From: Somniosus microcephalus
Lineage: Eukaryota
Length of the DNA stretch: 64,000 bases
Direction of reading: 5' to 3'
Assembly: GCA_052327205.1 (NCBI GenBank)
Contig: CM126222.1
Location: 54,312,001-54,376,000, forward strand
Positions 6,011-59,139 of this stretch are shown here, piece after piece. The position numbers and the translations under genes were made by a program. Each line of letters begins with the position of its first letter. The first letter of the stretch is position 1. Under the pieces are notes generated by a model. It did no database searches and had not been told where the DNA came from. It saw only the letters and a program-made list of their open reading frames with translations.

Positions 6011-6571
6011 TGTGAGTCATCAAAGAGTGCTGTGAGTTTGGGTAAGTGTGAGAGTTCTTTAATTGTTATTTCTCTTTAAATCATTCTTGATAAGATTACT
6101 TAAGCAGTTTAAGTAAAGGGGAAAAGTTAAATATTTGGGATTCTGTTGGTTTAAGAAGAGTAAAACAAGGTTACACTACAGTAGGAGTAAATTGGCACAG
6201 CAGGCAGTGGAAACCAGTTTTCTAACCAGTCAGCAGGGGTGACTCATTTGGCTGTAAACAAACAAACAGTATAAAAAGACCAGTCCTAGTGCGAGCAAGC
6301 AGTGAGTGCGAGTCATCAAAGAGTGCTGTGAGCTTGGGTAAGTATGAGTTAGGGTAAGTGGGGTGTTAGGTGCTCTTTTCAAACTTTAACTCTGTGGGTT
6401 GTAGTTAATAAGGCCTTTCTGGTGCAGAGTGACTGTTGGTAAACCATTTAACTGGTGTAACTAGAGGGATTGATTTAATTTAAATCCAATTAATTAAAGG
6501 GGATACTAGCATCTAAAATCGGGCAGAGGGTGTCCATAACTAACAATAAAAAATTTAATTAATTACATAGA

Positions 6572-7510: not shown

Positions 7511-7548
7511 CGAGTGGGGGGGAGGTTCCTAGAGAGCAAATAATAAAA

Positions 7549-10499
7549 ATGACAACAGAGAAGGTCATAGACTTAGGTAGCAGTGGGGAAATTAAAAACC
7601 AGAGCATGTCAGGAAGGGGCAGAAGGTATGGAGTAAAAGGTAAAGTAATCAAAAGGGCAAAAGCAGGAACTAAGCATCACAAAACATATTTGAAAGTTCT
7701 CTATCTGAATGCACGTAGCATTCGTAACAAAATAGACGAGTTAATGGCACAAATAACTACATATGGGTATGATCTTGTGGCCATTACAGAAACATGGCTG
7801 CAGGGTGACAATGCCTGGGAATTAAACATACCAGGTTATTTAACGATCAGGAAGGACAGGCAGGAAGGAAGGGGGGTGGGGTGGCTATGTTAATAAAGGA
7901 AGGAATCACTGTAATACAGAGAAATGATATTGGGTCAAAAGATCAGGATAATGAAACAGTTTGGGTGGAGGTAAGGAATAATAAGGGGAAAAAAACACGA
8001 GTGGGTGTAGTCTATAGGCCTCCGAACAGTTGCAACTCTGTTGGACGGAGTATCAATCAGGAAATAGTTGAGGCTTGTAATAAGGGAACATCTATAATTA
8101 TGGGGGATTTTAACTATCATATTAATTGGACAAATCAAATTGGGCAGGGCTGCCTTGAGGATGAGTTCATTGAGTGTATTAGGGATGGGTTTCTTGAGCA
8201 GTATGTAACTGAACCGACCAGGGGGCAAGCAACCTTAGATCTGGTCCTGTGTAATGAGACAGGATTAATTAAAAATGTCCTAGTAAAGGATCCCCTTGGA
8301 ATGAGCGACCATAACATGGTTGAATTCCATATTCAATTAGAGGGTGAGAAGGTTGGATCTCAAACAAGTGTGCTAAGCTTGAATAAAGGAGACTATGAAG
8401 GTATGAGAGCGGAATTGAGGAGAGTGGATTGGGAAAATAGATTAAAGGGTAAGACGATACATGATCAGTGGTGTACATTTAAAGAGTTATTTTACAACTT
8501 CCAAAAAATATATATTCCACTGAGAAGAAAAGGGTGTAAAAGAAAAGACAGCCATCCGTGGCTAAGTAAAGAAATTAAGGATAGTATTCAACTAAAAACA
8601 AGGGCATATAAGGTAGCCAAATCTAGTGGGAGGATAGAGGATTGGGAAAACTTTAAAAGACAGCAAAAAATAACAAAAAGATTGATTAAGAAAGGGAAGA
8701 TAGATTATGAAAGTAAATTAGCAAAAAATATAAAAACAGATAGTAAGAGTTTTTATAGTTATATAAAAAGAAAAAGGGTGGCTAAAGTAAATGTTGGTCC
8801 CTTAGAGGATGAGACCAGGAAATTAATGGTGGGAAATATGGAGATGGCAAAAACACTGAATGAATATTTTACATCAGTCTTTACAGTAGAAGACACTAAG
8901 AATATCCCAACACTGGACAAACAGGGGGCTATAGCGGGGGAGGAGCTAAACACGATCAAAATCACTAAGGAAGTGGTACTCGGTAAAATAATGGGACTCA
9001 AGGCGAATAAATCACCTGGACCTGATGGCTTACATCCTAGGGTCTTGAGGGAAGTGGCGGTAGGGATTGTGGATGCATTGGTAATAATTTTCCAAAACTC
9101 CCTGGACTCAGCAAAGGTCCCGGCAGACTGGAAAACTGCTAATGTAACACCCTTATTTAAAAAGGGCAGTAGACAGAAGGCTGGAAACTATAGACCGGTT
9201 AGCCTAACATCTGTGGTAGGTAAAATTTTGGAGTCCATTATTAAGGAGACAGTAACAGGACATTTGGATAATCATAATTTAATAGGACAAAGTCAGCATG
9301 GTTTTATGAAGGGGAAGTCATGTTTGACAAATTTGCTGGAGTTCTTTGAGGAAGTAACATATAGGGTGGATAAAGGGGAACCAGTGGACGTAGTGTATTT
9401 AGACTTCCAAAAGGCATTTGACAAGGTGCCACACAAAAGATTATTGCTTAAGATAAAAAATCACGGGATTGGGGGTAATATTCTGGCATGGATAGAGGAT
9501 TGGCTATCTAACAGAAGGCAGAGAGTTGGGATAAATGGTTCATTCTCAGACTGGCAATCAGTAACTAGTGGTGTTCCGCAGGGGTCAGTGCTGGGTCCCC
9601 AACTCTTTACAATCTATATTAACGATTTGGAGGAGGGGACCGAGTGTAACATATCAAAGTTTGCAGATGATACTAAGATGGGAGGGAAAGTAGTGAGTGA
9701 GGAGGACATAAAAAACCTGCAAGGGGACATAGACAGGTTAAGTAAGTGGGCAGAGATTTGGCAGATGGAATACAATACTGGAAAGTGTGAGGTTATGCAC
9801 TTTGGCAGGAAAAATCGTAGAGCAAGTTATTATCTTAATGGCAAGAAACTGGAAAGTACTGAAGTACAAAGGGATCTGGGGGTCCTGGTGCACGAAACTC
9901 AAAAGGTTAGTATGCAGGTGCAGCAAGTGATTAAGAAGGCCAATGGAATGTTGGCTTTCATTGCTAGGGGGATAGAATATAAAAATAGGGAGATATTGCT
10001 TCAGTTGTACAAGGTATTGGTGAGACCGCACCTGGAATACTGCATACAGTTTTGGTGTCCATACTTAAGAAAAGACATACTTGCTCTCGAGTCAGTACAA
10101 AGAAGGTTCACTCGGTTAATCCCGGGGATGAGGGGATGGACATATGAGGAGAGGTTGAGTAGATTGGGACTCTACTCATTGGAGTTCAGAAGAATGAGAG
10201 GCGATCTTATTGAAACATATAAGATTGTGAGGGGGTTGGATCGGGTGGATGCGGGGAGGATGTTCCCGATGATGGGTGAAACTAGAACTAGGGGGCATAG
10301 TCTTAGAATAAGGGGCTGCTCTTTCAAAACTGAGATGAGGAGGAACTACTTCACTCAGAGGGTGGTAGGTCCATGGAATATGCTGCCCCAAAAAGCTGTA
10401 GAAGCTACATCATTACATACATTTAAAACAGAAATAGACAGTTTCCTAGAAGTAAAGGGAATTAAGGGTTACGGGGAGCGGGCAGGAATTTGGACATGA
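7549..10499 (+). CDS. CR1 ORF2p: AP endonuclease + reverse transcriptase, with one frameshift in the G-run at 7871-7876
   Basis: YLNARSIRNK, AITETW, VYRPP, GDFN, LDLV, SDHN (APE); NYRPVSLTS, YLDFQKAFD, GVPQGSVLGP, FADD (RT). Adding one G joins the 7549 and 7881 ORFs as RQEGRGGGVAMLIK. Confidence 0.93.
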
Positions 10500-15212: not shown

Positions 15213-16689
15213 ATCAGAGAACTGCTGTTGTGAAGGCTGCCTGTCCCACTTGGCCAAACTGGGAAGAGACTCACTGATACCATTACAGACTGTAAAAATA
15301 AAAAAATTTCATACAGATACATTGTGACCTTATACTCCATGGCTAAGTTAACTGTAACATTAACGTTACTCCAGAGTAAGAGCTAATGCAAAAATATGTA
15401 TTTGCGGTCTATTTTGTACTAATGATAGATCTCAGACTTTGTTTTCTTATTTATTGTTCAAAGTTCTGTCACAGGTTTAACCCAGCAGATACTTGTGAAC
15501 CAGTGATATGAAAAATTATTTCAGTTGCTAGTCACTCAAACTGTTAATGAAGAGACAGAAAAATACAATGGGACTTTAAGACAAAAAGAAATTAACTGAG
15601 AGCTTAAGGCTGCATATACATAATCAAAGAGCTTTAAAAGTTCTAGGGTCATTTGTTTTTCTTATTATGGCAATATGATAGTTTAATGACTCCTACAGAG
15701 AATTAAATAAGCGGAGTAGTTTCTCACATAATTGTGAGTGATACATAGCTAAAGTTGAAAAAATGAATTTATCCTGTCTTCTTTGTGAATTGCTAATGAA
15801 TTAGATTGGAATATCACATTCTGCAAACACAAATCAAACAACCAAATATAACAGATGATGGAGAGAAGATATTATTCCAGAAAGGGTGGGCAATTTCACC
15901 ATAAAAGAATAAATGTTCAAATTGATTTGTTTCCTTTTGAGAAAAAGTTATATGAGGAATCAATATGTTTGCAAATAAAAAAAAAAATTGTTTATGGTTG
16001 GCTATGAAAATTAGATGATGCATTTAAAGGATTACTTCAAGAAGAAGTTAATAAAGGCGTTATCCTAGATTATTCCTAGTACTGTAAAACATCTTCATTT
16101 TTTTTTCTATTTTATAAATACCATTGGGTCTCAACCAAATTGAAGTTGCCAGTTCCCAAATGGAGAAAGGCTGAGTGCTGAGGCCGAACAGTATCAGCAC
16201 CCCATCTCTCTCTATATTCAGTGGAGACACTGGCTAGCAGTTGCATACATTAAACAGTCCATTTGCAGCATAATTTCCCCAAGATTGGGATTCTCACTAT
16301 GTTCAGAAAAATTGTCCTCAACATTATGGCAGTTGAAAATTGATAAAATGCACTGGGGGTGTATTCTGATACAGCCACCAATGTCGTGTCGCTGTGCTCC
16401 AAACCTCCGGGGACCTTGAACATTGATGGTAGCAGTTCCAATGACCAACTGATGGAGGCGATGGAGAAAGTAAACTATTGCCAAGCAATATTAATATGAA
16501 TAATCAATAACCCAACAAAAAATGAAGACCTGGTTTCAAACGAAATATATACACTCTGTGATAAACCTATTAGATAAAGCTGTGTGGAACATTTCTGTGA
16601 AGTGTTTCTTTTACCTTAAATAAGGGCATGGTTTAAATATTCAGGCTAGCCTGAATCTCCTTGGCCTGTTCTGAAATTTCAGTGGTCGA

Positions 16690-16842
16690 TGACATCACCT
16701 GGATGACGCCATACATCAACAGCAGAGTGACGTCATTCCAGGGGGGCTCCCAGAGCGACGTCACTCTTTTCCCAGGGCTGTGACCTCGGCAGAAAGTTCA
16801 GGACAATAAAATCCTGCCTGGGAGTTCTCGTACTGGGCGGGG
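16690..16842. promoter_or_regulatory. CRE/ATF site cluster with GC box
   Basis: TGACATCA 16690, TGACGCCA 16704, TGACGTCA 16728, CGACGTCA 16756, GGGCGGGG 16835. Confidence 0.5.
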
Positions 16843-19800
16843 AATCAGAGGAAGAATGAACGAAATAGCGCGCAGGGCTCTGTCCTAAATAGATCAATGC
16901 GGGACCGGTTGTTACAGCGGAACATAATCGGGACATTAAATCAAAAAAAGCAAACAGATGAGCTTTAGAAAGTAAACCACAATCAGAATAATCCTTGGCG
17001 TGTGTCAATTTCTTTTTAATCTGTAGTTTCTTTGTAAAAAGGCCCTCGTGTTGGGGGAGGGTCACTAGTTCCTGGTTCAGTGGCGAGTGGTGCTTTTATC
17101 GCAGTTGTGAATATTGGGAACCCAACAATGGCCGAGTTTAGGAAGTTGGGAGAATTGCAGCTTCTCTTCGGATCAGAGAATTAGGAATTTTTTTTTTTTT
17201 ACATTCTCCGCCCCCACTCCCCCAAAAAATACCAACAACAACATTGTGGCGGAGGCGCCGGTGTTTGAAACAAAGGGAGCGGGGGCTGCCGAACCAAAGC
17301 GGGGATACTAGAACTGGGGAAAAGCGGAGCAGGATCTGGAAAAGAGATTAGATTTCGCTTCTCTCTCATCAATTTTATGGTTAATGTCAAGCGGCTCCAT
17401 TGTGGGAGAAGAGGCACGTCAGCTAAGCCATAAATTGGTGAGCAGAGTGGCAGCGCAGAGAGCATCTGTTTGACCGAGTTCATTCCCTCTCACACTGTAC
17501 GGAGGCAGGTAGAGTCCTGTCTGAACATCATCTATCAGCAAAACAGAGTCAACCCGGGACAAAATACAAACCTACCAGATATTTACAGCGGGAGTTTCTC
17601 TAGGAAACATTCTCGATCTGCCGCCTGCGCCGTCTCGGTATGTTCTTTTGGGGGTTTTTTTTGAGGTGGGGGGAGGCAGTGCTTTTTTTCCCCGTCGGCT
17701 GTTTATAAATAAACACGACAATGTATGGGAGGGAGAAAATAATCAGCAGTGAAACGGCCCACCATGTTATAAAACATCTGAACACCGTTTAAAGGATCAG
17801 ATGCTCTAAAATCATTGACCACACGGTCTCCTAATAACATGCAATATAAGCTTATCATTACAGTACTTGCAATGGGCTCGCCTTTTACTCTGCAAAGGAA
17901 TGTGGGGTTACCCATTCCTTTTATCTTCAAAAATAACTCCCCCCCCCCCCCCAATTCAAAGTGTCCAACCTATAGTGCAACATGCACACGCATTTGAAAC
18001 CCTAATGAAAGGGACAAGGATATGGGTTTAGATTTCCTGGAAATCTAGAAAAAGAAATGTGCAATTTGGATTTTGAATCAATTATATATTTCCTACATAA
18101 TGGGTTTATTTTTGTTTCCGTTCGAAATGTTAGGGAGTATAGTGTGGGTGAGAGCGGCGGAGCCCCGGATTCTTGCTTTGGATTGTGATAAGTGCCCTTA
18201 TTACTTAATTTAAACTTCAGATTCCGAGATCAATTTTTTTTGTACTTTAAAAAGACGTGCCAAATGTTAATTGGTGGAAATCTGAACTAAATGCGCGAGT
18301 TTTCATTTATTGATGGTTTTGCTGTGCTAATTTGAAAGGATTATTTCGCCTGTGATATATATTTTTTAATTATTGTTCCTTGCGTTTCCATTACTGTCGG
18401 GACGTGTTGATGCATCGGGAATCAAGGCAAATGAACCCGTAATAAATAGCTACCGAACAAAACGCCTGGTGATATATATATTTTTAAAAAATCTTATGCC
18501 GGCGAAAATGTAGTTAATGAAATTCCCACAATTAGGTCACATTTATGACAAAGTCCAGCAGTGTGTGCGTGTGTTTTTTTTTGCTCAGGTTCTATCCGTA
18601 GTTCTCACCCGGTACTGTGCATTTCTCCAATGTCATTCATTGCCTGTTTGGGTATATCCTATTATTTTTTTTTAAAAAGTGTAAAAAAGCTGACAGGGCT
18701 TCAGTTGCAGGATTACAAATACATTGCCAATTAGATCTTGTTTTGCAGGCTTAAAGCAAATAGATTAAACTCTTTGGGGCTGCAGTACATTTAGAACCTC
18801 AAAAGTCTTTTGTTTTTTAATCAAATTATAGCAGAAATTCGAGTATTTTCTTTGGCGATGAACAGATAGTAGGTCGGTTGGCATGGGGGAAGTGAAACCA
18901 TGCAGAACGCTATAATCCCTTCTCTATCTGCCGAGTCCCTGTTTTTTTAAATAAAAAAAGGTTCACATTGGTGAATAAAACGCAACCTTGATTGTAGGCA
19001 CATTACGGAGAAAGGGGGTCGGGTTGTAAAAGCAGAACATCTTTACTCTTTTCTTTTATTTATTTTATTGCTTATTGTGTCTTAAACAACAAAAGAGGAA
19101 GAAAAAGCGCTTGAAAGGGGAACCCCGCGGTTGGGGAACTGTTTGTGATGGGGGTTGGGTGTAATCAGCTATCATCTTATTGTATTCTACTGACTGAAGG
19201 CTTAGGTTGCTAATTATCTCCTTAAAATGCAGGGGGAAAAACACACTAAAACAAAACAAGAAAGCTTGCTAGGCAATGGAGGTTGATTTTATTTTAGCGC
19301 CTTTGTGGGAACTAATAAAAAGCGGCATTGCCATCTGTAGGAAATCGGATTCGGACTACCCATGGCTCCTAATCTATGGAAGCAGTTTAGCATTAAGTAA
19401 ACCTGTATAAATAAAATATGTGTGATAGATTTCATCTTAGTGCCATTACAGTTTGGAAAAATAATGATCATTGCAACACGTGCAGGGGTTCCCCAGCATA
19501 CTGTTGTTACAGGTTATATCAAATCCGCGTTTAACATTGGTATCGAGGTATTTGTGTGTTTAACAGAGTCAAGTCTGTACGTGTGTCTGTGTGTGTATTT
19601 TAAGTTTTTATTCCAGTTCTGCCGTGTCGATATGATGTGGGCGAGTTCTCCTGCGAGTTGCCGGCTCGGCGCACACTCAGAGCGGGGGGGGGGGGGGGGG
19701 GAAGAGTCTGCAGCGACTCTGGGATCAGCCTGGAACGCCACAAACAAGCGCTGTCAGCTTACAGGGCCGCTCCGTGAGATCAAACATCACGAGGATCTAC

Positions 19801-22800
19801 TTATATTGTAAATCAGAGTGTTATTCGATTGTAAACAGGGGCTGCATTTGTGCCATTTTTACATTCGCTGCTTTGCAATTCATTTCATGTCCGCGATCCA
19901 CTCTGCAAAAAGCATTCTTGTCTCTTTAAAATAGATGGCAAAAAAAAAATTAAATCCGGCCCATCAGCACTATCCCCAGAAATGGTGAAATATAGCACAT
20001 GAACTAAGACAGTGAGGTTGCAAAGATGTTGCTCTTTGTTTCACGTTTCAATGTGTGCAAGCGTTTATCGGATAGAGACACACACACATATATATCAATA
20101 TATATATATAGAGAACAAATTGTGTATATCGTTGACATTTTTTCTCTTCACTTTAGGAGAAAAAGGTTAAATAGTAATACTTTGCAAAGGAATGAGTTTT
20201 CATTCGGGCAAATAGTTCCGTAGATGCACGGGTTCCTCTCTCCTCGCAGACCCCAAAGAACACACGTCCCCCCCCCCCCCCCCCCAATTTGGCTGTGTCA
20301 CATCATGTTGAATAAAAAAAACCTTAGCCCTTTTAGTACAGAAAACGAAGTGGGCATTGCCATTACAGCCTTGCCCCCAGCTTCTCCGGTTTGGTTGCTG
20401 CAATCTCTCTCTCGCTCTTAGGGTTCTCTGCCTGCTCTGTCGTTTTTTCCCCCTCTCTTGTCTTTTTTCTGTCTCTATCTCCTTCCTATTTCTCTCTCTC
20501 GCTCTCACTCTAATTTACTCTGTAAAATAAACGCCCTTTTACTTTGATAAATTGCAGATTTCTAGCCACAGCCTCCACATCTTCCGATTGATAAGATCTG
20601 AAACCGAAAGTACATCCACACAGCTCGGCGCCCGGCGAGTTCAGGTTCCCCGTCCGTTCCACAGATTTATACCCTGTCACGGAGTTTCAGTGTCTGATGG
20701 GTGGTATATTCCTAAAATAAACTGAAACCCCATCAAGTGATTTTACAATTGCCTGGAAAGTATCGGTCCTGGAGAGCTGGGGGTGGGGGAGTGGGCTGTA
20801 GTTTAAAATACGGTTTAAGTAGATTTTTTGCGAGTCGTGTGTTGATTTTTCAAGTCCTGGGATATGGTGGAATAACTTGGGGGGGCTTTTATATTCACAA
20901 ACACAGTCATTTCAGCTCCTTCCATCAAATCTCTTGAAATATGAGCCGCCTCTGAATGTTTCAGAGAAAGCCACCGAAAGGACCCGGCGCACAACCATGC
21001 GACCGGCTTCGGTTGCAATTCGAAGCGGGTGCAGTTTTTATACGAGGCGGGGGGAAAGCGGTCTCGATTCGCCGCTCCGTCTCAGCTGCCTCCGGCCTGG
21101 AAGTAAAAACGCGCAATAACCCAATACAATATTAAAATGACCATCTGCGTGCAGCGTATATCATTTATTTAGATCGGTAATTAAATTCATTACAATACAT
21201 AAATTCATCAGCAGATAGCGATGGCTAATAAGCACCTTACATACTGAGCATCGATTGTGTTTTCGTCATATTGTTGAATAGCAAATTGATAATTAACAAC
21301 TATGACAAGTCATACAATGCTTTTAGTTGAAGCAATAACGCGTTGGACAAGTTTGCGATATGAACGCTCAAGTTTATTTCACCCCCCACAATTTTAAAAG
21401 TAGCGATCAATAAAGGGACAGGGACTCTCGCTCGGTGTACAGAAAACAGAAAATACAGCCAGCAAAAAGGCCATCTAAATATTAAAAAGTGACACAGCGT
21501 CAGAAATAGGCCCTTCACTTGTAAAACAATATTTAAATTAATTACCCGTGGAAAGAAATATTCAAAGTATATATATATAATATATCTGAATTTTAAACCA
21601 CCGCGCAGACATTTGTTACACGTGGATTTCCCATAAATGCTCGGGTTTATTCAGAAAACGCCAAATCCATTAAAAAATCTGCAGAAGTAACAATATTCAC
21701 AAAACGTAGATGGCAACCACGTATTCGAATGTCCTAGCCGACCCTGTTGTTGGCTCGCTCTCCGCATGTACTGGATCATCAGAATTTGTAATGAGGAACT
21801 AAAAAAACCTGACCAAGCTAGCAACAATTGCATCTCGAAGTATAAGGGCGTCTTCTTATAAATGTATGACAAACTTGATTGCTAGCACTTGGGGACTTAA
21901 AACTATTTTACACTGCCGGATTTCAAACATAGATGAAGCGCTTGTTTTAAAGGGTTCGGGTTCTTTGAATATTAACTGGAGAAAGTGATATTTGTCATAT
22001 ATGCGCCTGAAAGTAAACATTCTCAATAATGAAACTTAGCAACAAAGGTGTGAGTTCTGACAGTGACTATCAGATGAGCAGCGTCTCATTTTCTAAGAGA
22101 ATAATAAAAATATATGGCTAAAGAATCCGGATTGGAAACCTTCGGTTTAAAATATATTTATATATATATTGGCCCAGAATTTGCTGGAGAGGGAATCTCA
22201 CCTCCTCGAGTTGGTTTGAAAGCTCACGACCGCCGAGTTCACGTTGTGCTGAGCTCCCATGACTTTGTGCTTATTTAAGCAGCAGGACGATCAGGCAGTG
22301 TGCGTGGTGGAACCTTTACCACATTCAAACTCCGAATTCAGTCAGCCACCCCTGGCCACAAAAAACAACCGGCAGAAATGCCCCTGGTTAGGGGAAGATA
22401 CTGGTAAAGAATTCACCGTCACACAATGTTCATCTGTGCTTGCGATTTCTCTTCTCTCACGTAATCCACACGTGTGCTGTGCTGTTAAAATGTGGAAACT
22501 TGCTATATGAAGAAAACTGGAGAGAAAGTGAACCATCGCAGCAGGAAGATTAACAGACCAAAACTGCGTTTACAATGGAATTGGTGCAGTGGTGCATGAT
22601 CATTGCACGTCTGATTTCTTTCCCTTTGGAAGTACTCATGTTGAAATAAATTTGCAGATATTGCTGGGTTCCTGTTAAAAAAAATAAAACCGCCACCGTT
22701 TTAGTGAACTGTCGCGTCCTTTACCGATTCATTTCTAAAATAAATAAGGCAGAGTTTAGTACAAAGTCCTTTCACAGACGCCGAAAGAAAGGTTTCGCAG

Positions 22801-24059
22801 CCCTTGGAGAGGAATTGCTGTCTTTATTTTCAGTCATTTTGGCAAGTTTCCTTCATGCGATTACATGTTAGTTACTTTATGATACCGTGTGAGAGCGCCA
22901 CAGTACAATAAAGGGCCCATTGTACAAATTTGTATTCTTTATTTTTTTTGATAAAAGCTGTTCGAGCTTAAAGAAGGAAATGTCTGACCTTATGAGGTAT
23001 TTCGGTTTTTATGTGTTTTCTTTGATTTGCCGTTACAGTCACTTAGAATTGTAATACTAAGTACGGACAGACATCTGGTTTACCTTTGGAACACTTTTTC
23101 TTAATTGATGTTTAAAAGTGGTCTTTATGGCTATCGGTAGGTTCCAACTTATTAAAGCGAAAACCAGATTTCCCTCGCTCCCAAAAAAAATGCACCACTT
23201 TCGAAACGTGATCTGTACAGATTAATGTCTCCGAAAATTCCACTTAAACACACGATTAAAGAAAGCAACAAAAAAATGAAAGGCCGGACTAAACGTCCGC
23301 TGACTGTAAACCGCTTTTCAGTCTTTTCGAGCCCCGTTTACTTTTATGTTTTTCTTCAATAAAATGCCTCGTAATGAAGCAGCCGCGCCAATAGCTTCTA
23401 CCATTTACGAGTGACCTCAACAGCTTATAATGCAACACAGATGCAGTACCCTATTAGAGAGATTTCTCACATTCGCTCAAAGCTGGGCGGATTAAAGTAA
23501 CAGTCTCCCTCTTTCCGAGGCTCTTTTACAACCTATGTTGCAGCCGTACAGCAAAATAACGGGCTGGTGCCTTTCCCATTTGAATTTCTGTCATTTTGTT
23601 TTGACCGGACGCTACTTTCTCTCTGAAATGCACTGCCATTTTATTGCAGTAAGCTGGTTTCTGACGGTCACGCTTCCGAATCAGATCCAAAGCCCAGGGA
23701 TCGCTGGTTGGTTGGTTCTGAATTCATGAAAGCGGCCTAAAATTGACAATTTATAGTAGGGGAAAACGAGATGTTGACACTGTCTATTTTAACACGTTTA
23801 ATGCGTATTTATCTTAGTAGATCAGATCTGTGTAGTCAAACGGGTGCTTATACAAACCCTTGTGAACTATATACTGAAAAGTTTCTAAAATATATATACA
23901 ATTAAATACAACATACAATATCTGCAAGCAGTTATTTCCATTCGCTCAGATGCAACTCAGCACTACTTATTATACCTATCGTTTTCGCCTGTGTTCTTTT
24001 TTTTTGTAAAATTGCGTTTTTAAGAAGCGTTCTGTTTCTCTTCCCCTTTTTTTTGTGTT

Positions 24060-25203
24060 TTGCCTTGCATGGCAAGCATGTATAGAGTAGCCTCCGGCCT
24101 CTAGTGACAAATCCTCGTTCTGGTAGTTGGATCTGGGTGTAAGATCGAAGGAAACTGTCAGTCAGTGATGCTTCATTGATCAGGCACAATCCTCTTTGCA
24201 GGACTTGCCTTCTTCAACAGCCATCAGTCATTTTGCATTAATTATCCTATCCACTGGTCCTCCAGGCTTCAACAGGGCGCCTCTGTGCACTGTTGGTGTA
24301 AAGTGAGAGAGAGAGAGAGAGAGAGAGAAGGCAAAAAGGAGAGGATTACAAGTTAGAAATAAAAGGGGAGAGAGAGAACCAAACAGATGCACAGGTTTAC
24401 ATATATATGAACGAGAGACTGGTATTGCTTCAGAAGGGGGGGGGGGGAAATGACAGACAAAAATAGAATTAAAAAATAAAATAAACCCACCTCGAGTTGT
24501 CTTTTTCCCCTTTCTTGAAACTCCTGTGGTGAAGAATGAAATATGTCCACGCGGATGCGAGCACACCACCATGTGTTTTCTACAGGCATATTGCCTTCCA
24601 AACTTCCTCTTCACGCCAGGCATCTTGTATTGAATTTCTTCACCCTATCGTGTACAATTGGTTATTCTTCCAACTTTTTCAGATCAAACATTTTTTTTCC
24701 ATTTCGATCTCATATTTTTTGTGTTTCACTCCATTTAAGCTGCAGCAGTAAACTCTGAAATCACAGTCTCCCCTTTTGGTCATATTTAACCCTGTTCTTT
24801 TTGTATCTTTCTCGCACTCACCCTTATATATGTTAAATTACTTTAAAGTCTCCTATTCTATCCTTTTGTTGCTTCTCTGGTCATTTCATTCAGTCGCAGT
24901 AATCATTGTACCTCCTTCCTGGTGTTGGAAAAGTCTGCTACCTCGCTCTTCCTGTTTCCTTTCAAGCACCTCTTTTTGTCTTGTAATTGTTCTGTCCTTT
25001 TCTTCCACGTTGCTTATCACTCTGACTCCCTCTCTGTTGTGAAATCCTGCTGCCTTACGTTTCCACTTTTTTTCCCCCACGTAATTGCTTTTTCCCCCCC
25101 TCACTCAGTATTTCTCTGTACAGATCACCTTCCTCTTGCACTACAACTCCACTCTTTCACTCTTCCCCTTTTCTGCTCTAGGGCCATTTGGGTCTCTTTA
25201 GAG
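24060..25203 (-). ncRNA. Candidate spliced divergent non-coding transcript upstream of BAHCC1 (3' end unknown)
   Basis: On - strand: TATAAAG (25233-25227), YY1-like AAATGGC (25189-25183), donors AAC|GTAAGG (25058) or GAG|GTACAA (24911), branch CTAAC (~24355), (CT)n tract, acceptor AACAG| at 24290. No long ATG-initiated ORF in the putative exon. Confidence 0.4.
24305..24328. repeat. (GA)n microsatellite
   Basis: Directly visible. Confidence 0.9.
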
Positions 25204-25450
25204 GCCGCCGCGAAACCGTCACTTCCCTTTATATCTCTCTCTGGCAACTCCGAGCGAGGGGCGCCCCGAAACCGTCGCCGCGCCCTAATTGCTTTTCATG
25301 CAGCCCGGCGCGGACTGGCCGCCAGCCAATCAGAGGCTTGTTTACACAGTTTGATTGACAGGAATCTGGCAACCCGCCAGCCAATGGGAGTCTTGTTTAC
25401 ACAGTTTGATTGACAAGAGCCCAGGATTGCTAGCAGTGCGTGCCTCATTG
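25183..25450. promoter_or_regulatory. Probable bidirectional BAHCC1 promoter with duplicated CCAAT / Forkhead / PBX-PREP module
   Basis: Two 42-bp copies (25319-25360, 25374-25415) of ccgccagCCAAT-N6-ctTGTTTACacagttTGATTGACA; CpG-dense; Inr-like TCATTG at 25445. Confidence 0.7.
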
Positions 25451-25605
25451 TACAGACAAGTTGTTGAAGCAAAGAAATCTTTTAGTGCTCGTGCTCAACT
25501 GCAACCTTTTCAGAAGTGTAGCATGTCACATAGCGTCCAGATAATTAAAAATTAGTATTTTTTTTGCTTTTTTTCACAATAAGGCAGTGTATACTCGGAA
25601 TTCCA
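25447..25605 (+). other. BAHCC1: Probable non-coding exon 1 of BAHCC1
   Basis: Starts at an Inr-like motif just after the promoter module and ends at donor CCA|GTAAGT (25606-25611). A strong acceptor follows at 27426. The start position is inferred. Confidence 0.55.
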
Positions 25606-27426
25606 GTAAGTACACGTTTTTGCTACATATATACAATAAAAGTCAAAATACAAACATTATAAAAATTAAAATATTTGTTATTTTAAGTGTAACCTAATGT
25701 ATTTCCGTCTTTGTTTGTTATTAAAGCAATGTAATCAATAAACCGTTCTTTTTTTTTGGGTGAGGGGGGGTTTGTGAAATCCCACTTTTGTCTGCAAAAA
25801 AAAAACGGAAGCCGAAGCTCCAAGCGGCAAGCTCTGGTTGTGTATCCGCTCTGTGCGCTCTCTAGCCCGGTTGCATTCGTGAGGACAGCGCGCTCTCAGA
25901 TCAGATACCACTCACCAAGCTTTACCCCAAAACACCTTCTCAAATGCTTCCCTAATTCTCAAAAAAAAAATGAATCAATATATAAAGTCTCTGTAACAGC
26001 CGCTCTGCCTGTGATATTATCAAGAGGACATTGAGCAGAGGGAGCGGGTCTGAGCTGAAGCAGATTCCTTATCGCGCTGTGATGATACGGAATGTCTCAT
26101 TCATATTCGATATTTGGAGAGACGGTATCATTTTTTTTTTAAATCCTAAAGGTACGAAAGCAGCAAGAACGAGTGATAACTTTCACCTCTGTATTGTCGG
26201 CGAGAAGATAAACGCCTCGATTTTAATTTTAAAGCACAGCAGTGCCAGGTGGAGAATGAGACGGAACACACGGAAGAAAACAGTAGTCATATTGTACTGT
26301 GAATTGACAACTCGACTCCCCACATTACAAAAAGCAGGCATTTTACACGATCCCATTTTAATTATTTTTAAAATGTATATCGTGGTCGGTCGATTAATTG
26401 CTACATCTTTGCGGCCAGTTCTTTAAATTGCAATCTAGATAGAGTAGGTAAGAACATGCATTCGTTTTAGCTGTAGGGCGCAGAATGCAGTCTACTTTTT
26501 AGGGTTTGTATGTGTATTTTACAGAATCAGTGGTCTTACAAATAAAAACCGACTTTTGAGATAATCACGTTGGTTAAGAGGGGGGGGGGGAGTCTTCCAT
26601 TTCAATTCCTTAACAATAACGTCTCCATTTAGTCTTTTAAATATTTCGCACAGCTCTCTGTGTGTTGTGGCAATGGTAACTTTCTGTCAAAAGTAATGTC
26701 AGATGGATATAAAGAAAGGAGGAGAGCAAGAGAGGGAATTGCTGAAAAATAAAGAGGAAGAATGAAAGACAAATTGAGAGCATCCAAATGAACGAGAGCT
26801 CCTTGTGCTAAATTGCCAATGCAGCCCAGTGTGTGCGCGCCTGCCTAAAAGCGGGTGTGTAAAAAATATCCTGCACATATAACTGGACAAAATGCTTAAA
26901 GAAAAATACAGTACAAATTCTGCTGCATAAACCAATTCGTCTTAGAAACAGGGGCCGCCTTTAATAAACATTTCATTGTTTAATCCTCTGAATGTCATGA
27001 GTAATTTATGTCCCCGGGAGCCGTGCGCTGAATGCAGGCTCTGTATTGCAGATATTTGGTTTAATTTTCTTTTCTTGTTGGACCGACTAAGTGTTGAGGT
27101 AAATTGGTGTGATTTATAAGAGAGTGAATTTTAAAAAAAATGTATTATTCAAATGGTCTCGGGCGTCCGTTCTCCTGTTAAAATATATGGTTTGAAGAGA
27201 GACTTGAGTTTATCTGTTCCATTCTCTGTTATTAGAAGCGAGCTGGAAATGGAGTGATTTTGAATGCTCGAGAAGGGTGTGAGTTTTCATTTGATCTTAT
27301 TGTACTTGTTGGTGCAGTATGGCGGCTGTGAGAAAGACAGGAAGGAGCCGGCAAAGTTTCTCCTCTCTGAGCTTGAAGTACGGGGTCTAGATGTGCGATT
27401 GACGGCTGATTCTCCCTCTCTTGCAG

Positions 27427-27761
<335 letters not shown>

Positions 27762-30700
27762 TAGTGAATCTTAACCCGAACTCGCGCCTGTGCCTGTGTG
27801 TATATAATATACACAAGTCTAGACTGCTTGATCGAAATAAATAATTTTGCAAATTACCCTGGATTTTTTTTTAACCCAAACCATGCTTTTGTTAAACAGC
27901 ATTTATCATTGTCGCAGAAAAACAGCGATGTTTAGTATATAATGAATCGATGTCTGTTAGCATTAAAAGCTAAAATTGTTCCTCGGATAACGCTTACTTT
28001 GAAGAATAATGCTTTATACTGTTTAAAAAAAAACCCTGATAAGCGTATCACATTCTGCAGAAAAGTAAGCAAGGGTGCATATTCAAATGCTGTTATCCAG
28101 TACAAAGAGACTGTAGTCACCTTGAATACCGAGGCTGTTCACAGATGTGTATATTGATACAGGGTAATGCAATAGGAAAATTCTGACCGTTATATGTTCT
28201 GCATATTCTGCAGAAATGTAATAGTGCGATACCATATTGAAGGGAGCTACTCAGCAAGAGATCGCCGTCACGTTAAGCTAAGTGGCAGTGTATCTGTCTG
28301 CGGGGTGTGTAATGGTGTGGTGTGATGCTCGAAAATCCGGTTTCTAAAATGGTTTGCGAAGTGTGAGGGTGAAAATGGGTTCACTCGACATTCAGAGGCT
28401 TGGTCAAGTGTTTCTGGTATTCTGTTAAACAAATACTGCACAGGCGTTAGAGCAAGAGGAAACAAAGTATTCTACCGCCTGCTCCGTAAAGAGGAAACAG
28501 AAGGCAGAATGCTGAGCTTGGTTTGGTGTGTAACTACGCGCCATGTCCTTGGAATAGTACTAATGATATACTGTTAATAATATATATATAGGACACTATT
28601 GTGGAACTCACAGACCTACCGAAGCACAGAATTCCACTGCACCATTCCAAGTCACTTTCTCTAACGAGAAATTCAGATTCAAACATCGCAGTACTTCACA
28701 AATGTTGCTACTCGGCATTCCTCTGTAGTAACAGCAGTAACAATAATAAAGAGGTTGTCAGTTCTTGGTTTTGTCAGAGCAGATGTTTTGAATGTCGGTG
28801 TTTCTGATTTTTTTTTCCAGTGATGGTTTCTAAGTATATAGTTTGGATCAAGTTTCATCTTAAAAAAGAAAAAAAACACACACACACACACACACACACA
28901 AGCGCGTCCCTCGTGGTGCTGGCTTCGGCGGGGCTTGGTAATATTTCTGGAAAAAAAAAACAACATCACTTCAGTCACCGCCGAGAATAGTCAGTGAACA
29001 TCTTCCCCTCCCAGCCCCACCTCCAACCCCACACCCCCAGAACAACAAGCCACTCGCCGCTACCTTTGCATGCACTGACAAATTTGGGAGATAAATAATA
29101 CATTTGCTGGGGATTAGGAGTGTAAAAGAGGTGACGCGATTCTGCATGTGTTACATAAGAACATGCTGAAATTGCCATCATTGAGGTAGTCTACAATATC
29201 CCGGTCACCGTCTCCACAGTGAGGCTGTTGGTAAGTTGCAAACCACATGGAAATTCAGAAAGAAACATTTCGAGATCTATAAAACAAGTCATCTTCCATT
29301 CCATGCTATTTTTGCTTGGAGGCAAATGCTGAGCAGGTATTGCATTAGTCAAATGAGAAGGAAGATTGTTGCCTAGAAGTGTTGGGATTGATAGATCACT
29401 GTTAGTTCGAACATATTTAATACCGTCTGATGCGAGTTATAATGTGGCGGCAAATTCGTGTTTGGAAATGGTCAAATTGGTGGATTAAAATCCCAATTGT
29501 GAATCAGGGACTTTCATTAGGGATTTCACCAGCAAGATGACAAGGTTGTGAGGAATATTGAAATCACCACCATGTTTGAGAATACCGACACGGATTCTGA
29601 ATAGACCAAAGTCCTGTAATATGTGTTTTTTTTAACGTTTCGCTTGATGCACTTGGCACCGAGTCAAGACGTTTTATTAATCTGACTGCAATGTAAACCA
29701 ATCTTAGCAGGCGGGCTCTACATTTATAGTGAAGTGACCGAACGCTCGCCATTGATTAAACCCGAAGAGCCTGTCCTTTTTCACTAGTGCACGTTACATA
29801 AAGGTCAGAAGCGAGTGGCGTACGGAAATCTTAAGAGATATGGGTTTTTAAATATCTCTTTGTTCAGGCTTTTAACTAGCGATTGATCCTTGTATTGATA
29901 GACAATAATCACATTACACCAAATGAAGCCGTTCAGAGTAAATACTTTCTTCCTTTTTAACAAAATGCAACAACATAAAATTAGGCCAATTCACTTGAAT
30001 GATCTGTATAATCCCCCTTTTCCTGTTGGTTTGTAGATTTCAGTGTAGTTTCCCCAAAGTTTTTTTTATACATGCCCCCAAACATGACTTAATTTGAATG
30101 AACTTTTAGCAGATTATGGGTTTTTTTTACCACAAGGCAGTAACACTTCACACCGGGCCGTATCTTGAAGCAAACGCTATTCCTATTGTCCAAATGTTCA
30201 GTGAGCTGAATTCGATCGTTGCTGTTCGAACTTTTCCCCACTTTGCTGAACGTGATTAACTACCAGGAACCAAAGGATCCAGGAATTTGATCAGCGGGTC
30301 CCCATCCCAGAGAGTCATGCAGCCCATAAAATGGAAATCTGCGAAACAGAACAAAAAAAGTTGTGCCCTAACTGAATTGTCTTCAGAAAAGTTATTCCCA
30401 TTATTGGCAGCTACCTGTTTTAGGGTCAGTTCCGGTTCAGCGTACACCCCAGATACCCAGATATCAAAGCCCGATTGATTCCAGCGTCTAAAAGGTGATC
30501 TTAGTATGTTTGCCATTTCTGCGCGGCGTTTGCAGACATTTGCGAACAAGAATAGTAATGCTATATTCAGAGGCTGGGAATGTGTGAATATACTGATACT
30601 CTTTCACATGCAGTTCCTTCCAAAATGGAAACTGTGGAGCGGTCTGCTGGTTCATGGCGGGACGACGTTTACTGTAATTTTTAAAACATTATTTCGTTTT

Positions 30701-33700
30701 GTTCCATGGGGTCCACTTGAGGTTAATGCTAGAAACCCGCATATTTCTCCAATCACTAGATCATTTAAGTATTACAAATGAGATTGCACAAGAATGAAAC
30801 TAAACCTTAAAATCCACCATTTACACATCCGAAGCCAGGTTAAATCAGGCGATCTCTGACAAACACACACAGAAGGAACTTGAATCGCGCCTGTTTCATC
30901 GCAACATAATTTCCCTCTTTGCCCTTCTGTTTTTGACGATTTCCGAACTTTTACTTTGTTAATGTTCCCGTCAGCTTTTGTTCATGTCGATACAAAGAAT
31001 CTCAGTTTTCATCGCTCCCTCCCCCTGATTTCTCTCTTCTGTATCTTTAGTCAGGCTCCAAGTCATTTCTCGCTCTGTTTTTGCACCGGTGTTGTCAGCC
31101 TCTGGTTTTGTTTCTCGCCGGCCGACAACACACTGCCCACTTGTAAAGGTTTCCCATTTTATTTGTGAAATTGCCTGTCAATAGAAAAGTAGATCAATAT
31201 TTAGATAGTTTTATTAGTCAAATAGATTTATTGGACAGACAAGTCGATAGACGAGTTGATTTATTACTTTTATCAGATGAAACAGATAACGGAGAGATGC
31301 AGATAGATAGGTATGTTCGTGTGTATGTTGTACCTATCAGAGAGACATGTACATAAAGCTAACGTTTCATTTAAACCTAGCAGAAACAATAATGGGTACA
31401 AGTACGTACACAGGCAGGCAAATCTCTATTTAATACCATGAAAGGATAGGTCGTATCTACGTAATATATTGACTTAGAAACATAAATATAGCCGATTAAT
31501 AATGAAGATACTGGACTTTAAAGTCGGAGAGCCATTCTTAATATGAAGCAAATACTGATATCCGTTTGGGAGAACTGTACAGTACATGTGTACATGGACG
31601 GAGTGGAAGCAGGCAGTTTGATGGTTCTGGGAGTACAGGCTCCCTGCCTTTCTTCGGGTTTTGCTTCACCCAGTAGATTTTCTCAGTAGCTGGGCGATTG
31701 GACACGAACGCCTCTCTATCATTCGGTTGGGAAGTGTCCGGTCGCTATATTTTTCCTTTTGTGTTGTTGCTGATTTATCGAGGTTTTTTTTGCCAAGTCC
31801 TGAATAAACCCCCCCCCCCCCCCAACCCCCAACCCATCTTCGATTTGGAACATTTAAAAAAAAGATTGCCTTGGATGTTTTGACACTTAGTAAAGATGAA
31901 ACAATAGTCACGCTGAAAAATAAAAGTTGGTAAATGTAGGCCGAGAGATTGGATGCTGGAAAAGTCTCCACCCTGTTCTGATGGTAATTGCCAGTCAGAA
32001 TTGTACCGTTTGCTCATGGAAGGTTCCTGGTCTTGTGGCATGTTAAAGGGTTAATGCCTCTGACATAACCTTGGAAACATAAGTAAGTTCAGACCTTTTG
32101 TAAAGTTTTGGAAATAGGAGCGATAGAGAGGAAAAGAAACATCAAACAGTGAAGTCATTTCTTTCATTTTTTTAAAATGCGAATGATTACAAATCAAGAT
32201 CACGCCATTGAAAGACTCATTTACTTCATTCCTGTTTGTGGCATTTACTTTCTGATGGACAATGAGGCATTTCCTGAGGAGAATTTCTTTTGCTTTAAAA
32301 TACTTAAACGGCCAGGACTCGAACCTATTGCTGCAATGAGGGACAAGGTGCAGAATCTACACACATCAATAAATGCCATGCATTAAAGTAACTAGCAACT
32401 ACTATACAAATATAAAAATCCAGTGTTCCACATCTGAGGAAGTCATTCACTGAATGTCAGTCTGAAAGTGACCGATGAAGCAAATTCGGTCTCATTTCCA
32501 AAACCCATTTGAAAGCGCCTCGCCCTGACGGGGCGACCAGAGAGCAGTGTGGATCTCCCAGCCTGCGCCTCACTGTACTGCAAACACTCAAATACAGCCG
32601 GGCTCTTAAGGTAAAGCTGGGGGGGGGTGGGGGTTGGGGTTTGACCGTGCTTTACCTCTGTACCGAGTTTGCATAAACAAAACAAATTTTAAAAAAAAGA
32701 CGTCCCGGATTGTTTGAGATTCTTAATTCTTCTGGGTTCTCGAATCCAACTCAAGGATTAGATAAGAGATTCCGAGAGTGTATTACAACTGGTCTTTTCT
32801 TTGTACAGCTGAAACATTCAGCATTTATCCCTTAATCATTCTTTTCATTCGCAATTACTGTACTTCCTTTGGAGATACGCATTGAGACTCAGTTCTGGCA
32901 TAAAACCTTGCAAACTCCTCAAGTCCCCAAACCAGGGCTCTGCTATCGATTTTACAGTTTTCCAACCTATCGTGGACTCAAGAGACTGAAATATATGATG
33001 AAGTATGGCATAAAGCAGATCTCGCTCCTAAATGAAAGATACAGGCTGAAATTAGACAGCAGAGGCTGCAGCGTGCTGTGGGATTGAATTGCTAATTCAG
33101 TTAACTAACCATTTCGTAAACGGAGGGAGTGGAGATTATCCTACATTTCTACCTCGGATTACCAAGTCAAACACCAGAGATATTTAACTACGAAGTGTTA
33201 AATAATCCGACGTTGTGCTAAATAAGAAGAAATCCCCTGCGCTCCCGGCTTCTATAGCGAACCGGTTCTGATTTAAAAGAAATAGTAAAAAAAATAAACC
33301 ATCCTTGGTCAAACCCTAAAGGGATTCTCCTCCCAGTTAAAATCTTTACTGCTTTTAGATAAGACTCGAGCGTGTTAAAGCTGTTACACGCCTTTCTGCT
33401 TTATCCCGCCAAGGCAGGCGATGCACCGAACTGCTAATTTGAATTTTGTTTGGAATATTCTGTTTTTCAAAAAAAAGCGAGGACTCGGCGGCTGGGCTGC
33501 TGAAGCTTCCGAGCTGCTGTATTGTGCTGGGTTTGAATTGCGATCCCCGCCCTCTCTAATCTTACTATTTATTTACTCTCCAGCTCCCGCTGATCTTCCT
33601 CACTCGGTCTGTTCAGAAAAGCATCGGCTGTTTTATTTTCTCCCTCATTTACAACAGCCTCTCTTTCCCCCCCCCCCCCTCCCTCCCTCCATTATATCTC

Positions 33701-35039
33701 TCATTTAAAGGGGCACATTCTCAGATTGGTTTCTGCAATTTAATCGGCGCGTTTTCAAAAAATAAAATAACACATTTTTACTTCAAACTGTCTAAACGGA
33801 GCAGGAATATCCGAGCGAGTTTCCTGTGAGAACCATTTCAAATCGCGATCGTTCCAATCGCGACTCTCGATTCAAACGAGAGGCTGAGATTTTTTTAAAA
33901 ACACTATAAAATGTTGAAAACTATTTGCCAGTTTTAAAAGATGTCACACAACGTGCAAACCGTTTGTCGTAACAAATTGTACACAGTCGAGGAAAAATGT
34001 GGCCAAACCCGTGCCATGGTTAGCATATTTTACCGTTTAAAATGTTGAGACATGTACTCGACAAGGGGCTGTACACTTTAATCATTGTAATCCAATCTAT
34101 CCACTTATCCGTATTAGTAAATTAATTGTAAATTGTTTTACAACATAAGCACAATTATGTTGGAGGGAAAGGTTTTTTTTAACATACGAGATTATCGTTC
34201 TGAGATTTTTGGTGGTCATTATCATTTTGCAGTCTTTAAAGTCAGTGTGTAGTTCAGACAGCAATCCTCAACTCCTCAAACTGATTGCAGTAGTTGAAGA
34301 CAGCAGCAGCTTTCTGTGCGGGGAGGGGGAGGGGGGAGAGGGGGGAGGTAATTGCCAAAAAATAGCCCCTAAAATCTTTAGCTATTTCATCCTAGTTTTC
34401 AAATAATGACACCTTCATACAGTGATCTCAGAATCCTATATTCTTGATTAGAATCGTTAAACAATATATTAGATTCACCTAGCTTAGAAATCTCTAAATT
34501 ATTTAATTCTGATTTTTATACATGTTAAAGTTGACAAAGACTTTTTGCTGGAATGCCTTTTAACAATTCCATTTGAACCTCAGCCTCAGATAACATATAG
34601 ATAATAAACATGCCTGGGTATTTCTCGGAAGGCTTTAACACACATAGTGCCTATAAACTGAATGTGGTCTTCAGATGGTTATGCAGTTATCCAATGCTGG
34701 CGAATATGTTGTAGCTTTGAAGTATTTCCAAATATGACTTTTTAAAATCATATAAATGATGCTTCTCTCCTTTTTTATAGTTTTCCTAGATGTTATTTAT
34801 TGGCCATTTATCAATGCATTTTGCATTTTCAATTACTATGGTTAACTACTGCCATTATACCCCTTAATCTTTTCCGTGCCATGTGACAGGAAGAGGGCGT
34901 GTTTTAATATATGGTGCCAGGGTCTGCAGACAGGAAGAAAACATTTTATAGAGAAATAATCACATTTTGAGGATTAAATGATTTTGAATAAACTCTATGT
35001 ACTTCTATTTACAGTGACATTTCTATGGTTGTTTGCTAT

Positions 35040-50048: not shown

Positions 50049-50379
50049 TTTACAAAAATAATGGTGGATTGTCACCCTCCAAATGTCAAAAATGTGTGTC
50101 AAAAATATTAACCAGTATAAGAAGTATCAAAGAAAAGATGCTTCTTTTTTCTGACCTGGAACCTGAAATTTACAAGCGCCTACCGGCAAATAACAATTAA
50201 GCTCTTGATTGATCTCAGGACTTATTTAGGACAGTTCGCACTTGGGGCACCTGAGCATTGGCCTTCAAGGGAGAGACGAGGTTATCAGCTAAAACAGCAC
50301 AACAGTGTTCCAGATCCCAGGCTACCCCTGAGCAATACCATGGGAGACCAGATGTGTGTGTTTATGCATTTAGTGGTGT

Positions 50380-56735: not shown

Positions 56736-56741
56736 CACTTG

Positions 56742-57885: not shown

Positions 57886-57936
<51 letters not shown>

Positions 57937-59086: not shown

Positions 59087-59139
<53 letters not shown>

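What the first reader, a model, noticed from the sequence alone, without database searches (positions are those of the whole stretch)
25319..25416. Tandemly duplicated CCAAT-Forkhead-PBX/PREP cassette at the core of the BAHCC1 promoter
Seen: two 42-bp units with a 55-bp period. CCAAT, TGTTTAC and TGATTGACA(G/A) and their spacing are identical; differences fall only in the 6-nt linker after CCAAT. Established: TGATTGACAG is the PBX-PREP decamer and is reported about 20 bp from NF-Y CCAAT boxes at early-embryo promoters; the gap here is 21 bp. Inference: a fixed three-factor module with a Fox site in the NF-Y/TALE spacer, doubled and under selection, driving both directions.
Basis: partly seen in the sequence, partly recalled or inferred. 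Interest (0 to 1): 0.7.

Follow-up and report, generated by a model that had tools for sequence, protein, structure and literature searches.

The report
Doubled promoter cassette from dispersed repeat
A doubled set of three transcription-factor sites upstream of the chromatin gene BAHCC1 is real and conserved in a related species, and it lies in a stretch that occurs elsewhere in related genomes as decayed single-cassette copies, so it may be a promoter recruited from an old mobile element.

Summary
The repeat is real: two 45-bp units (41/45 identical, 55-bp period), each CCAAT-8-TGTTTAC-6-TGATTGACA, 2.2 kb upstream of the BAHCC1 start codon. A relative keeps both units in a 668-bp island with 2.7% change against 8.1% in the flanks. 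Here CCAAT comes first and the gap is 21 bp. New: the island (about 25171-25748) also matches at least 4 non-orthologous contigs in one relative and 2 in another. They look decayed, and 3 of 3 informative ones carry one cassette. So the cassette probably belongs to an old low-copy repeat and was doubled at this locus. In published mouse tables NF-YA/B/C, Prep1 and weak Sp2 peak about 140-175 bp upstream of the Bahcc1 start, and Bahcc1 falls to 0.65 in Prep1-null cells. That match is by position only, not by alignment. RNA is thin: about 10 antisense reads leftwards in 1 of 2 runs, and no sense reads next to the cassette. Forkhead binding is untested. Verdict: probably an NF-Y/TALE promoter module; transposon origin about even odds.

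The parts
25319..25363 (+). Cassette copy 1: CCAAT 25326-25330, Forkhead-type TGTTTAC 25339-25345, PBX/PREP decamer 25352-25361 (exact)
25374..25418 (+). Cassette copy 2: CCAAT 25381-25385, TGTTTAC 25394-25400, decamer 25407-25416 (9 of 10)
25360..25380 (+). Junction made by the doubling: decamer core (GAnnGAC) followed by CCAAT in the canonical order, but 21 bp apart (11 plus about one helical turn)
   Evidence: canonical spacing
25089..25756 (.). Conserved island holding both copies in organism E (18 substitutions, 4 gaps in 668 bp); its limits are contig ends, so approximate
   Evidence: table 8 record 3
25171..25748 (.). Stretch matched by non-orthologous contigs (4 in organism D, 2 in organism E) at about 86-94% in the aligned pieces; one cassette in 3 of 3 informative contigs
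   Evidence: tables 5, 5c, 7, 8
25094..25107 (+). Left arm of a possible terminal inverted repeat (C-run plus 7 nt), TTT outside; suggestive only
25757..25770 (-). Right arm of the possible terminal inverted repeat (13 of 14 complementary), TTT outside
25203..25276 (.). Second repeat pair (18 bp, 16/18, period 56) with an E2F-like TTTCGCGG on the minus strand at 25215-25208 (motif name recalled)
25226..25233 (-). TATA-like TATAAAGG pointing away from BAHCC1; predicts a leftward start near 25200
   Evidence: inference
24592..25196 (-). Low-level antisense RNA, about 10 reads' worth of depth in run X22 and none in X21
25606..25611 (+). Candidate splice donor GTAAGT of a possible non-coding exon 1; not supported by reads
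27561..27759 (+). First coding stretch of BAHCC1 (ATG to phase-1 donor); sense reads cover 27254-27760 and 5 molecules stop at the donor

Best explanation
The cassette is a working NF-Y plus PBX/PREP binding module in the upstream promoter region of BAHCC1. It came with an old low-copy repeat, probably a non-autonomous mobile element of about 600-680 bp, that carried one cassette. At this locus the cassette was doubled before this species split from organism E, and the copy has since been held by selection while other copies decayed. SHOWN: the doubling, island-level constraint, dispersed single-cassette copies, gene identity. INFERRED: NF-Y on the two CCAAT boxes and PBX/PREP on the two decamers keep the island open. 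Polymerase starts leftwards at the TATA-like box and probably rightwards into a non-coding first exon. The two factors bind side by side without the 11-bp Sp2 bridge. SPECULATIVE: a Forkhead protein uses TGTTTAC, and the doubling was kept because it put a decamer upstream of a CCAAT on about the canonical helical face (11+10 bp). Odds: promoter or promoter-proximal function about 0.8; mobile-element origin about 0.5; Forkhead an obligate third partner about 0.25.
For: Constraint: 18/668 substitutions in the island against 186/2293 in four flanking pieces, Fisher P=1.4e-7, and lower than each piece including the one with the coding exon. Both CCAAT boxes fit RRCCAATSR although two of the differences lie there (consensus recalled). 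Dispersed copies: D records 8, 9, 10, 11 and E records 4, 5. The joints in records 8, 9 and 10 are 49, 60 and 44 nt shorter than the window, about one unit. D contigs show C>T/G>A 23 against T>C/A>G 8, while mostly orthologous E shows 53 against 51 (P=0.024). A possible inverted-repeat pair brackets the homology and is the best of 13 C-run/G-run pairs in the window. Mouse Bahcc1: NF-YA/B/C peaks at -164/-139/-175, Prep1 peaks 169 bp (81-fold) and 1267 bp (102-fold) upstream, and expression 0.65 in Prep1-null ES cells, adjusted P=4e-47. The NF-Y peaks persist in Sp2-null cells (0.71 to 0.48, 4.98 to 6.46, 1.82 to 1.24), unlike Tnrc18, where the NF-YA and NF-YC rows vanish. Antisense reads begin just left of the TATA-like box.
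Against: No sense reads at 25197-25559 and no joint from 25605 to the ATG exon in either RNA run, although only about 24 and 19 reads lay on the ATG exon. Antisense reads were seen in 1 of 2 runs. No mouse or human sequence could be aligned, so the mouse data match by position only, and two Prep1 peaks compete for the match. Native Sp2 does bind the mouse Bahcc1 promoter (14-fold and 8-fold), which weakens 'no Sp2 bridge'. The inverted repeat is mostly a homopolymer, no transposon family could be named, and the copy number seen is low. One search hid 229 substitution rows, so base-level conservation of each motif in E was not seen. Two of the 9 CpG-type changes in D (25251, 25256) are shared with E's orthologue and may be ancestral states.
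Confidence: 0.55

Rival explanations
1. As first read: a canonical early-embryo PBX/PREP-NF-Y composite with a Forkhead site in its spacer, working as one obligate three-factor unit at the BAHCC1 core promoter.
For: All three motifs and both spacings are kept in both copies. NF-Y and Prep1 are co-centred at mouse Bahcc1, and weak native Sp2 is there too.
Against: Order and spacing differ from the defined element (decamer, 11 bp, CCAAT). Models predict that the Sp2 bridge is lost beyond 12 bp (tested to 13). Non-motif bases are as well kept as motif bases. Identical spacing follows from the duplication alone. No paper linking Forkhead to this module was found.
Confidence: 0.15
2. The cassette is not the BAHCC1 core promoter. 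It is a promoter-proximal enhancer and the promoter of a leftward non-coding RNA, while BAHCC1 starts mainly in or near the ATG exon about 1.9 kb away. This is compatible with the repeat origin.
For: The only TATA-like box near the cassette points left. Antisense reads start there, and sense reads appear only from about 27254. Mouse has a second Bahcc1 transcript starting about 3.7 kb downstream (derived) and a strong Prep1 peak 1.27 kb upstream of the start.
Against: RNA depth is very low and 5' ends are under-covered. There is a perfect GTAAGT donor at 25606 and there are acceptor-like sites before the ATG. The mouse NF-Y plus Prep1 site lies at an upstream start.
Confidence: 0.3
3. There is no transposon origin. 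This is an ancient host promoter, and the dispersed copies were made from it when it had one cassette (capture, segmental duplication, or remnants of genome-duplication paralogues such as TNRC18). Only the constrained island is still alignable.
For: Low copy number; no family named; weak terminal repeats. Mouse Tnrc18 also has Prep1, NF-Y and Sp2 at its start, which suggests an ancestral NF-Y/TALE promoter in this gene family.
Against: At least 4 extra loci in organism D is more than two genome duplications give. They look decayed, not conserved. None shown in D extends outside 25171-25748 or into the coding exon.
Confidence: 0.3
4. A neutral local duplication inside a dead repeat, with the motifs being leftovers of the element's own promoter.
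For: The motifs are present in the single-cassette copies too, and differences avoiding the cores is not significant.
Against: Three-fold lower substitution rate than the flanks in organism E. CpGs are retained (o/e 0.71 at 25001-25500) while other copies lost them.
Confidence: 0.05

Closest known systems
DECA-CCAAT composite element (PBX/PREP, NF-Y, Sp2; bioRxiv 10.64898/2026.02.16.706105, PMC7793273, PMC6023610)
   Same: Decamer and CCAAT box on the same strand near a developmental gene start, and repeated within one promoter (the Sp2 promoter has three such pairs).
   Different: Known: decamer upstream, 10-12 bp. Here: CCAAT upstream with a 21-bp gap holding a Forkhead-type site, and the only decamer-then-CCAAT pair is also 21 bp apart.
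Tandem CCAAT promoters bound by NF-Y and Sp2 (PMC4368557)
   Same: Two CCAAT boxes in one orientation.
   Different: Known pairs average about 35 bp apart (30-50). These are 55 bp apart.
Mouse Bahcc1 promoter (supplements of PMC4395233, PMC4368557, PMC3439921)
   Same: Same gene; NF-Y, Prep1 and weak Sp2 peaks about 140-175 bp upstream of an upstream start; expression depends partly on Prep1.
   Different: Sequence homology to this cassette was not tested; whether mouse has one or two units, or the Forkhead site, is unknown.
Exapted ancient repeats (Eulor/UCON/MER-type conserved elements; PMC5753468, passages seen)
   Same: A low-copy dispersed family in which one copy near a developmental regulator is constrained and others decay.
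   Different: No family could be assigned because no repeat library was available. The evidence is from contigs of two relatives only, and local doubling of a site cassette is added.

Membership tests
DECA-CCAAT composite element | PBX/PREP decamer (TGAnTGACAG, core GAnnGAC) | tested here: met
   Exact in copy 1, 9 of 10 in copy 2
DECA-CCAAT composite element | CCAAT box with NF-Y flanks | tested here: met
   Both fit RRCCAATSR; 9 such sites in the 64-kb window (consensus recalled)
DECA-CCAAT composite element | Decamer upstream of CCAAT within the unit | tested here: not met
   CCAAT is upstream in each unit; the canonical order exists only across the junction of the two copies
DECA-CCAAT composite element | 11-bp (10-12) spacing | tested here: not met
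   21 bp in both directions against 11 bp
DECA-CCAAT composite element | Co-binding of NF-Y and PBX/PREP in vivo | not testable with these tools
   No ChIP for this species; mouse Bahcc1 promoter peaks match by position only
DECA-CCAAT composite element | Sp2 bound and NF-Y binding dependent on Sp2 | tested here: inconclusive
   Mouse: native Sp2 peak present, 0 of 22 Bahcc1 rows in the Flag-Sp2 sheets, NF-Y peaks kept in Sp2-null cells
Exapted non-autonomous transposon | Dispersed homologous copies | tested here: met
   4 non-orthologous contigs shown in D, 2 in E; none elsewhere in this window
Exapted non-autonomous transposon | Shared ends with terminal inverted repeats and target-site duplication | tested here: inconclusive
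   13/14 inverted pair, mostly a C/G run, with TTT on both sides; best of 13 pairs; ends of the other copies not seen
Exapted non-autonomous transposon | Match to a named family or autonomous partner | not testable with these tools
   No Dfam/Repbase here; Rfam gave 0 matches over 14000-36000
Exapted non-autonomous transposon | Purifying selection on the recruited copy | tested here: met
   2.7% against 8.1%, P=1.4e-7, one species pair
BAHCC1 core promoter | Sense start site within about 200 bp and splicing into the coding exon | tested here: inconclusive
   No sense reads or joint at low depth in 2 of 2 runs
BAHCC1 core promoter | CpG-retaining context upstream of the gene | tested here: met
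   CpG o/e 0.71 at 25001-25500, inside a broad CpG-rich domain from about 16.5 to 34 kb
Bidirectional promoter | Divergent transcripts on both sides | tested here: inconclusive
   Leftward reads in 1 of 2 runs, rightward reads not seen next to the cassette
Forkhead-bound element | Forkhead occupancy of TGTTTAC | not testable with these tools
   Consensus present twice; 11 such sites in the window

The most novel reading that the evidence does not exclude
The NF-Y/PBX-PREP promoter of BAHCC1 in jawed vertebrates descends from an undescribed transposon that carried a ready-made CCAAT-Forkhead-decamer cassette with a geometry unlike the known 11-bp element. The family is still visible as decayed copies in these slowly evolving genomes and may have seeded the same module at other genes.
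Probability: 0.2. Interest if true: 0.7.

Novelty: new variant of a known kind. Interest (0 to 1): 0.42.

Why it matters
BAHCC1 is a chromatin regulator needed for neuronal commitment and over-expressed in leukaemia and melanoma (PMC12276004, passages seen), and little was found in print on its promoter architecture. A second NF-Y/TALE geometry with a Forkhead site would extend the grammar beyond the 11-bp rule and is cheap to test with existing ChIP data. A traceable path from a one-cassette repeat to a doubled, constrained promoter would be a clean case of promoter birth from a mobile element. If the origin part fails, this is an ordinary conserved NF-Y/PREP promoter with a local duplication.

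Tried and rejected
No whole genome is held for this window, so no genome-wide copy count was possible. Metagenome scan with free spacings: 64 chance-like hits, 0 of 64 with the 8/6 spacing. Viral contigs 0 and prokaryote genomes 0. These collections are not vertebrate sets, so they are no test of conservation. No second copy in the window by blastn or nhmmer. No notable fold (z=-1.3) and no Rfam match. ESM Atlas, Pfam and the word-indexed protein search gave nothing for the 66-aa exon (the last covered proteins up to 2000 aa only). The run search listed no holder on record as RNA, which is no evidence either way. The 385 and about 2046 reads at 24436-24485 are poly-G/poly-A artefacts and were dropped, as were short partial matches at 25560-25680. 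Reno1 as the divergent partner was rejected: in mouse it lies about 44 kb upstream. bahcc1 had 0 hits in 7 supplements of the zebrafish TALE paper. A Crypton-, Helitron-, hAT- or Harbinger-type identity was considered from recalled end motifs only and could not be tested. 'Sp2-independent' was my reading after and was weakened. The Reno1/Bahcc1 paper is not held, and bioRxiv supplements were closed. Earlier scan notes gave nothing on this locus.

Full report
OBSERVATION. Two units lie at 25319-25363 and 25374-25418, 41 of 45 bases alike, with a 55-bp period. Each reads CCAAT, 8 nt, TGTTTAC, 6 nt, TGATTGACA. The differences are at 25331, 25332, 25336 and the tenth base of the decamer. The pattern occurs twice in the window and in 0 of 100 shuffles. 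Resampled windows reach at most 29/45. The pattern of differences does not itself show selection on the motifs (P=0.12; 18 of 21 non-core bases are also identical), although both CCAAT variants fit the extended NF-Y consensus (consensus recalled).

GENE. An exon with ATG at 27561 and a phase-1 donor after 27759 hits 70 proteins. Of 10 clusters looked up, 8 are named BAHCC1 and 2 have no name. No later BAHCC1 exon was found in the window by tblastn with 100 proteins. The cassette centre is 2194 bp upstream of the ATG, inside a broad CpG-rich domain. That the host is a cartilaginous fish is my inference from recalled LINE types, not a tool result.

GEOMETRY. The published composite is GAnnGAC, 11 bp, CCAAT, with the decamer upstream (bioRxiv 10.64898/2026.02.16.706105, first part and passages read; PMC7793273, passages). 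Models there lose the Sp2 bridge beyond 12 bp (tested to 13). The '~20 bp' is an average spacing in PMC6023610 (passages). Here CCAAT precedes the decamer by 21 bp, so the unit is not that element. The doubling does create one decamer-then-CCAAT pair, also 21 bp apart, which is the canonical spacing plus about one helical turn. Whether that matters is speculation.

CONSERVATION. I laid 4 of the 24 listed runs. In organism E one contig spans 25089-25756 with 666 letters, 18 substitutions and 4 gaps, so both units are present. Four flanking pieces carry 186 substitutions in 2293 bp (8.1% against 2.7%, P=1.4e-7; each piece alone P<=0.012; a fifth 62-bp piece was left out). This is one species pair. 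Base-level detail at the motifs was hidden (229 rows not shown).

DISPERSED COPIES. Further contigs match only 25171-25748: records 8, 9, 10, 11 in organism D and 4, 5 in organism E, at about 86-94% in the aligned pieces (14 pieces not shown). They are not D's orthologue. D holds 17% of the sampled 31-mers, which contigs at about 89% identity cannot supply, and none touches the coding exon; the tool says a filter drops some records. Records 8, 9 and 10 cross the cassette region with 49, 60 and 44 fewer bases than the window, which means one unit in 3 of 3 informative contigs. Changes in D run C>T/G>A 23 to T>C/A>G 8, against 53 to 51 in E (P=0.024). Of 31 listed D changes, 9 are CpG transitions where CpG bases make up 8% of the stretch, though 2 of these are shared with E's orthologue. 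A 13/14 inverted pair at 25094-25107 and 25757-25770 with TTT outside brackets the stretch and is the best of 13 comparable pairs, but it is mostly homopolymer. The simplest reading is an old low-copy repeat with one cassette, doubled and retained here. The direction (repeat to promoter, or promoter to copies) is not proven.

RNA. Two raw-read runs with the same species label gave 25 and 32 reads at 99% or better. Sense reads lie at 27254-27760 (about 24 and 19 reads), and 5 molecules end at the donor. Neither run has depth at 25197-25438 or sense depth at 25439-25559, and no joint from the candidate donor at 25606 was listed. Run X22 has about 10 reads' worth of opposite-strand depth from about 25196 leftwards; X21 has none. 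A TATA-like box at 25233-25226 on the minus strand predicts a start near 25200. So leftward firing has thin support and the BAHCC1 start site is unresolved.

MOUSE DATA (supplement rows and passages seen; match by position only). Prep1 peaks lie 169 bp (81-fold), 1267 bp (102-fold) and 15.8 kb upstream of Bahcc1 in ES cells, and Bahcc1 falls to 0.65 in Prep1-null cells (PMC4395233). NF-YA, B and C peak at -164, -139 and -175 in fibroblasts and stay in Sp2-null cells. None of 22 Bahcc1 rows is in the Flag-Sp2 sheets, which hold only about 760 strong sites (PMC4368557). Tnrc18 has Prep1, NF-Y and Flag-Sp2 peaks and loses its NF-YA and NF-YC rows without Sp2. Against a clean contrast, native Sp2 does peak at Bahcc1 (14- and 8-fold, against 20- and 33-fold at Tnrc18; PMC3439921, one file not searched). 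Reno1 lies about 44 kb upstream in mouse, so it is not the divergent partner.

MECHANISM. Most likely NF-Y binds both CCAAT boxes and PBX/PREP binds both decamers. Together they keep the island free of nucleosomes (the NF-Y role is stated) and let polymerase start leftwards at the TATA-like box and probably rightwards into a non-coding exon of BAHCC1. Doubling doubles the sites. Forkhead binding is possible but the site lies 9-15 bp behind CCAAT, where NF-Y, which covers about 30 bp, may compete. Odds are given under Best explanation; the rival confidences concern different axes (function, start site, origin) and do not sum to one.

NOVELTY. Ten searches of the held library found no description of this three-motif cassette, of a doubled unit at BAHCC1, or of a repeat origin. 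Most subscription papers and repeat databases were not searchable. BAHCC1 is not among the terms of the Precambrian-conserved segments paper (PMC10735318, passages). Other papers seen as passages only: PMC12276004, 10.1101/720102, PMC9877250, PMC5753468, 10.1101/2023.01.18.524519. The parts are known kinds (NF-Y/TALE promoter, exapted repeat, local site duplication); the geometry and the traceable one-to-two history are the new variant. Interest 0.42.

Noticed in passing
window 27430-27486: A short upstream ORF (ATG just after the acceptor-like site at 27427) precedes the BAHCC1 ATG; a decamer-like CGATTGACGG lies at 27396.
   Followed up: no
window 25588-25616: Imperfect 29-bp palindrome centred on GAATTC, overlapping the candidate splice donor and lying inside the dispersed-repeat stretch.
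   Followed up: partly
window 25203-25276: Second repeat pair with a 56-bp period flanking the minus-strand TATA-like box; possibly an older duplication of similar length.
   Followed up: partly
window 16500-34000: Broad CpG-retaining domain of about 17 kb (o/e often 0.6-1.3) around the BAHCC1 5' end, against 0.1-0.5 in most of the rest.
   Followed up: no
window 20200-20520: Stretch that looks like the 5' end of a minus-strand transcript or a regulatory element about 5 kb left of the cassette; could be where the antisense RNA goes.
   Followed up: no
window 6563-10499 (+) and 54564-56660 (-): CR1-like LINE copies: one with an 896-aa stop-free endonuclease/reverse-transcriptase frame behind a 315-aa ORF, one broken (family name recalled).
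   Followed up: no
window 48887-50049 and 56735-60334: Minisatellites of 36 bp (32 copies, 96%) and 23-25 bp (about 148 copies).
   Followed up: no
L001 and 14 other metagenome loci: 15 of 64 motif hits share one sequence with 10/3 spacing, so they are one multi-sample organism or element, unrelated to this finding.
   Followed up: no
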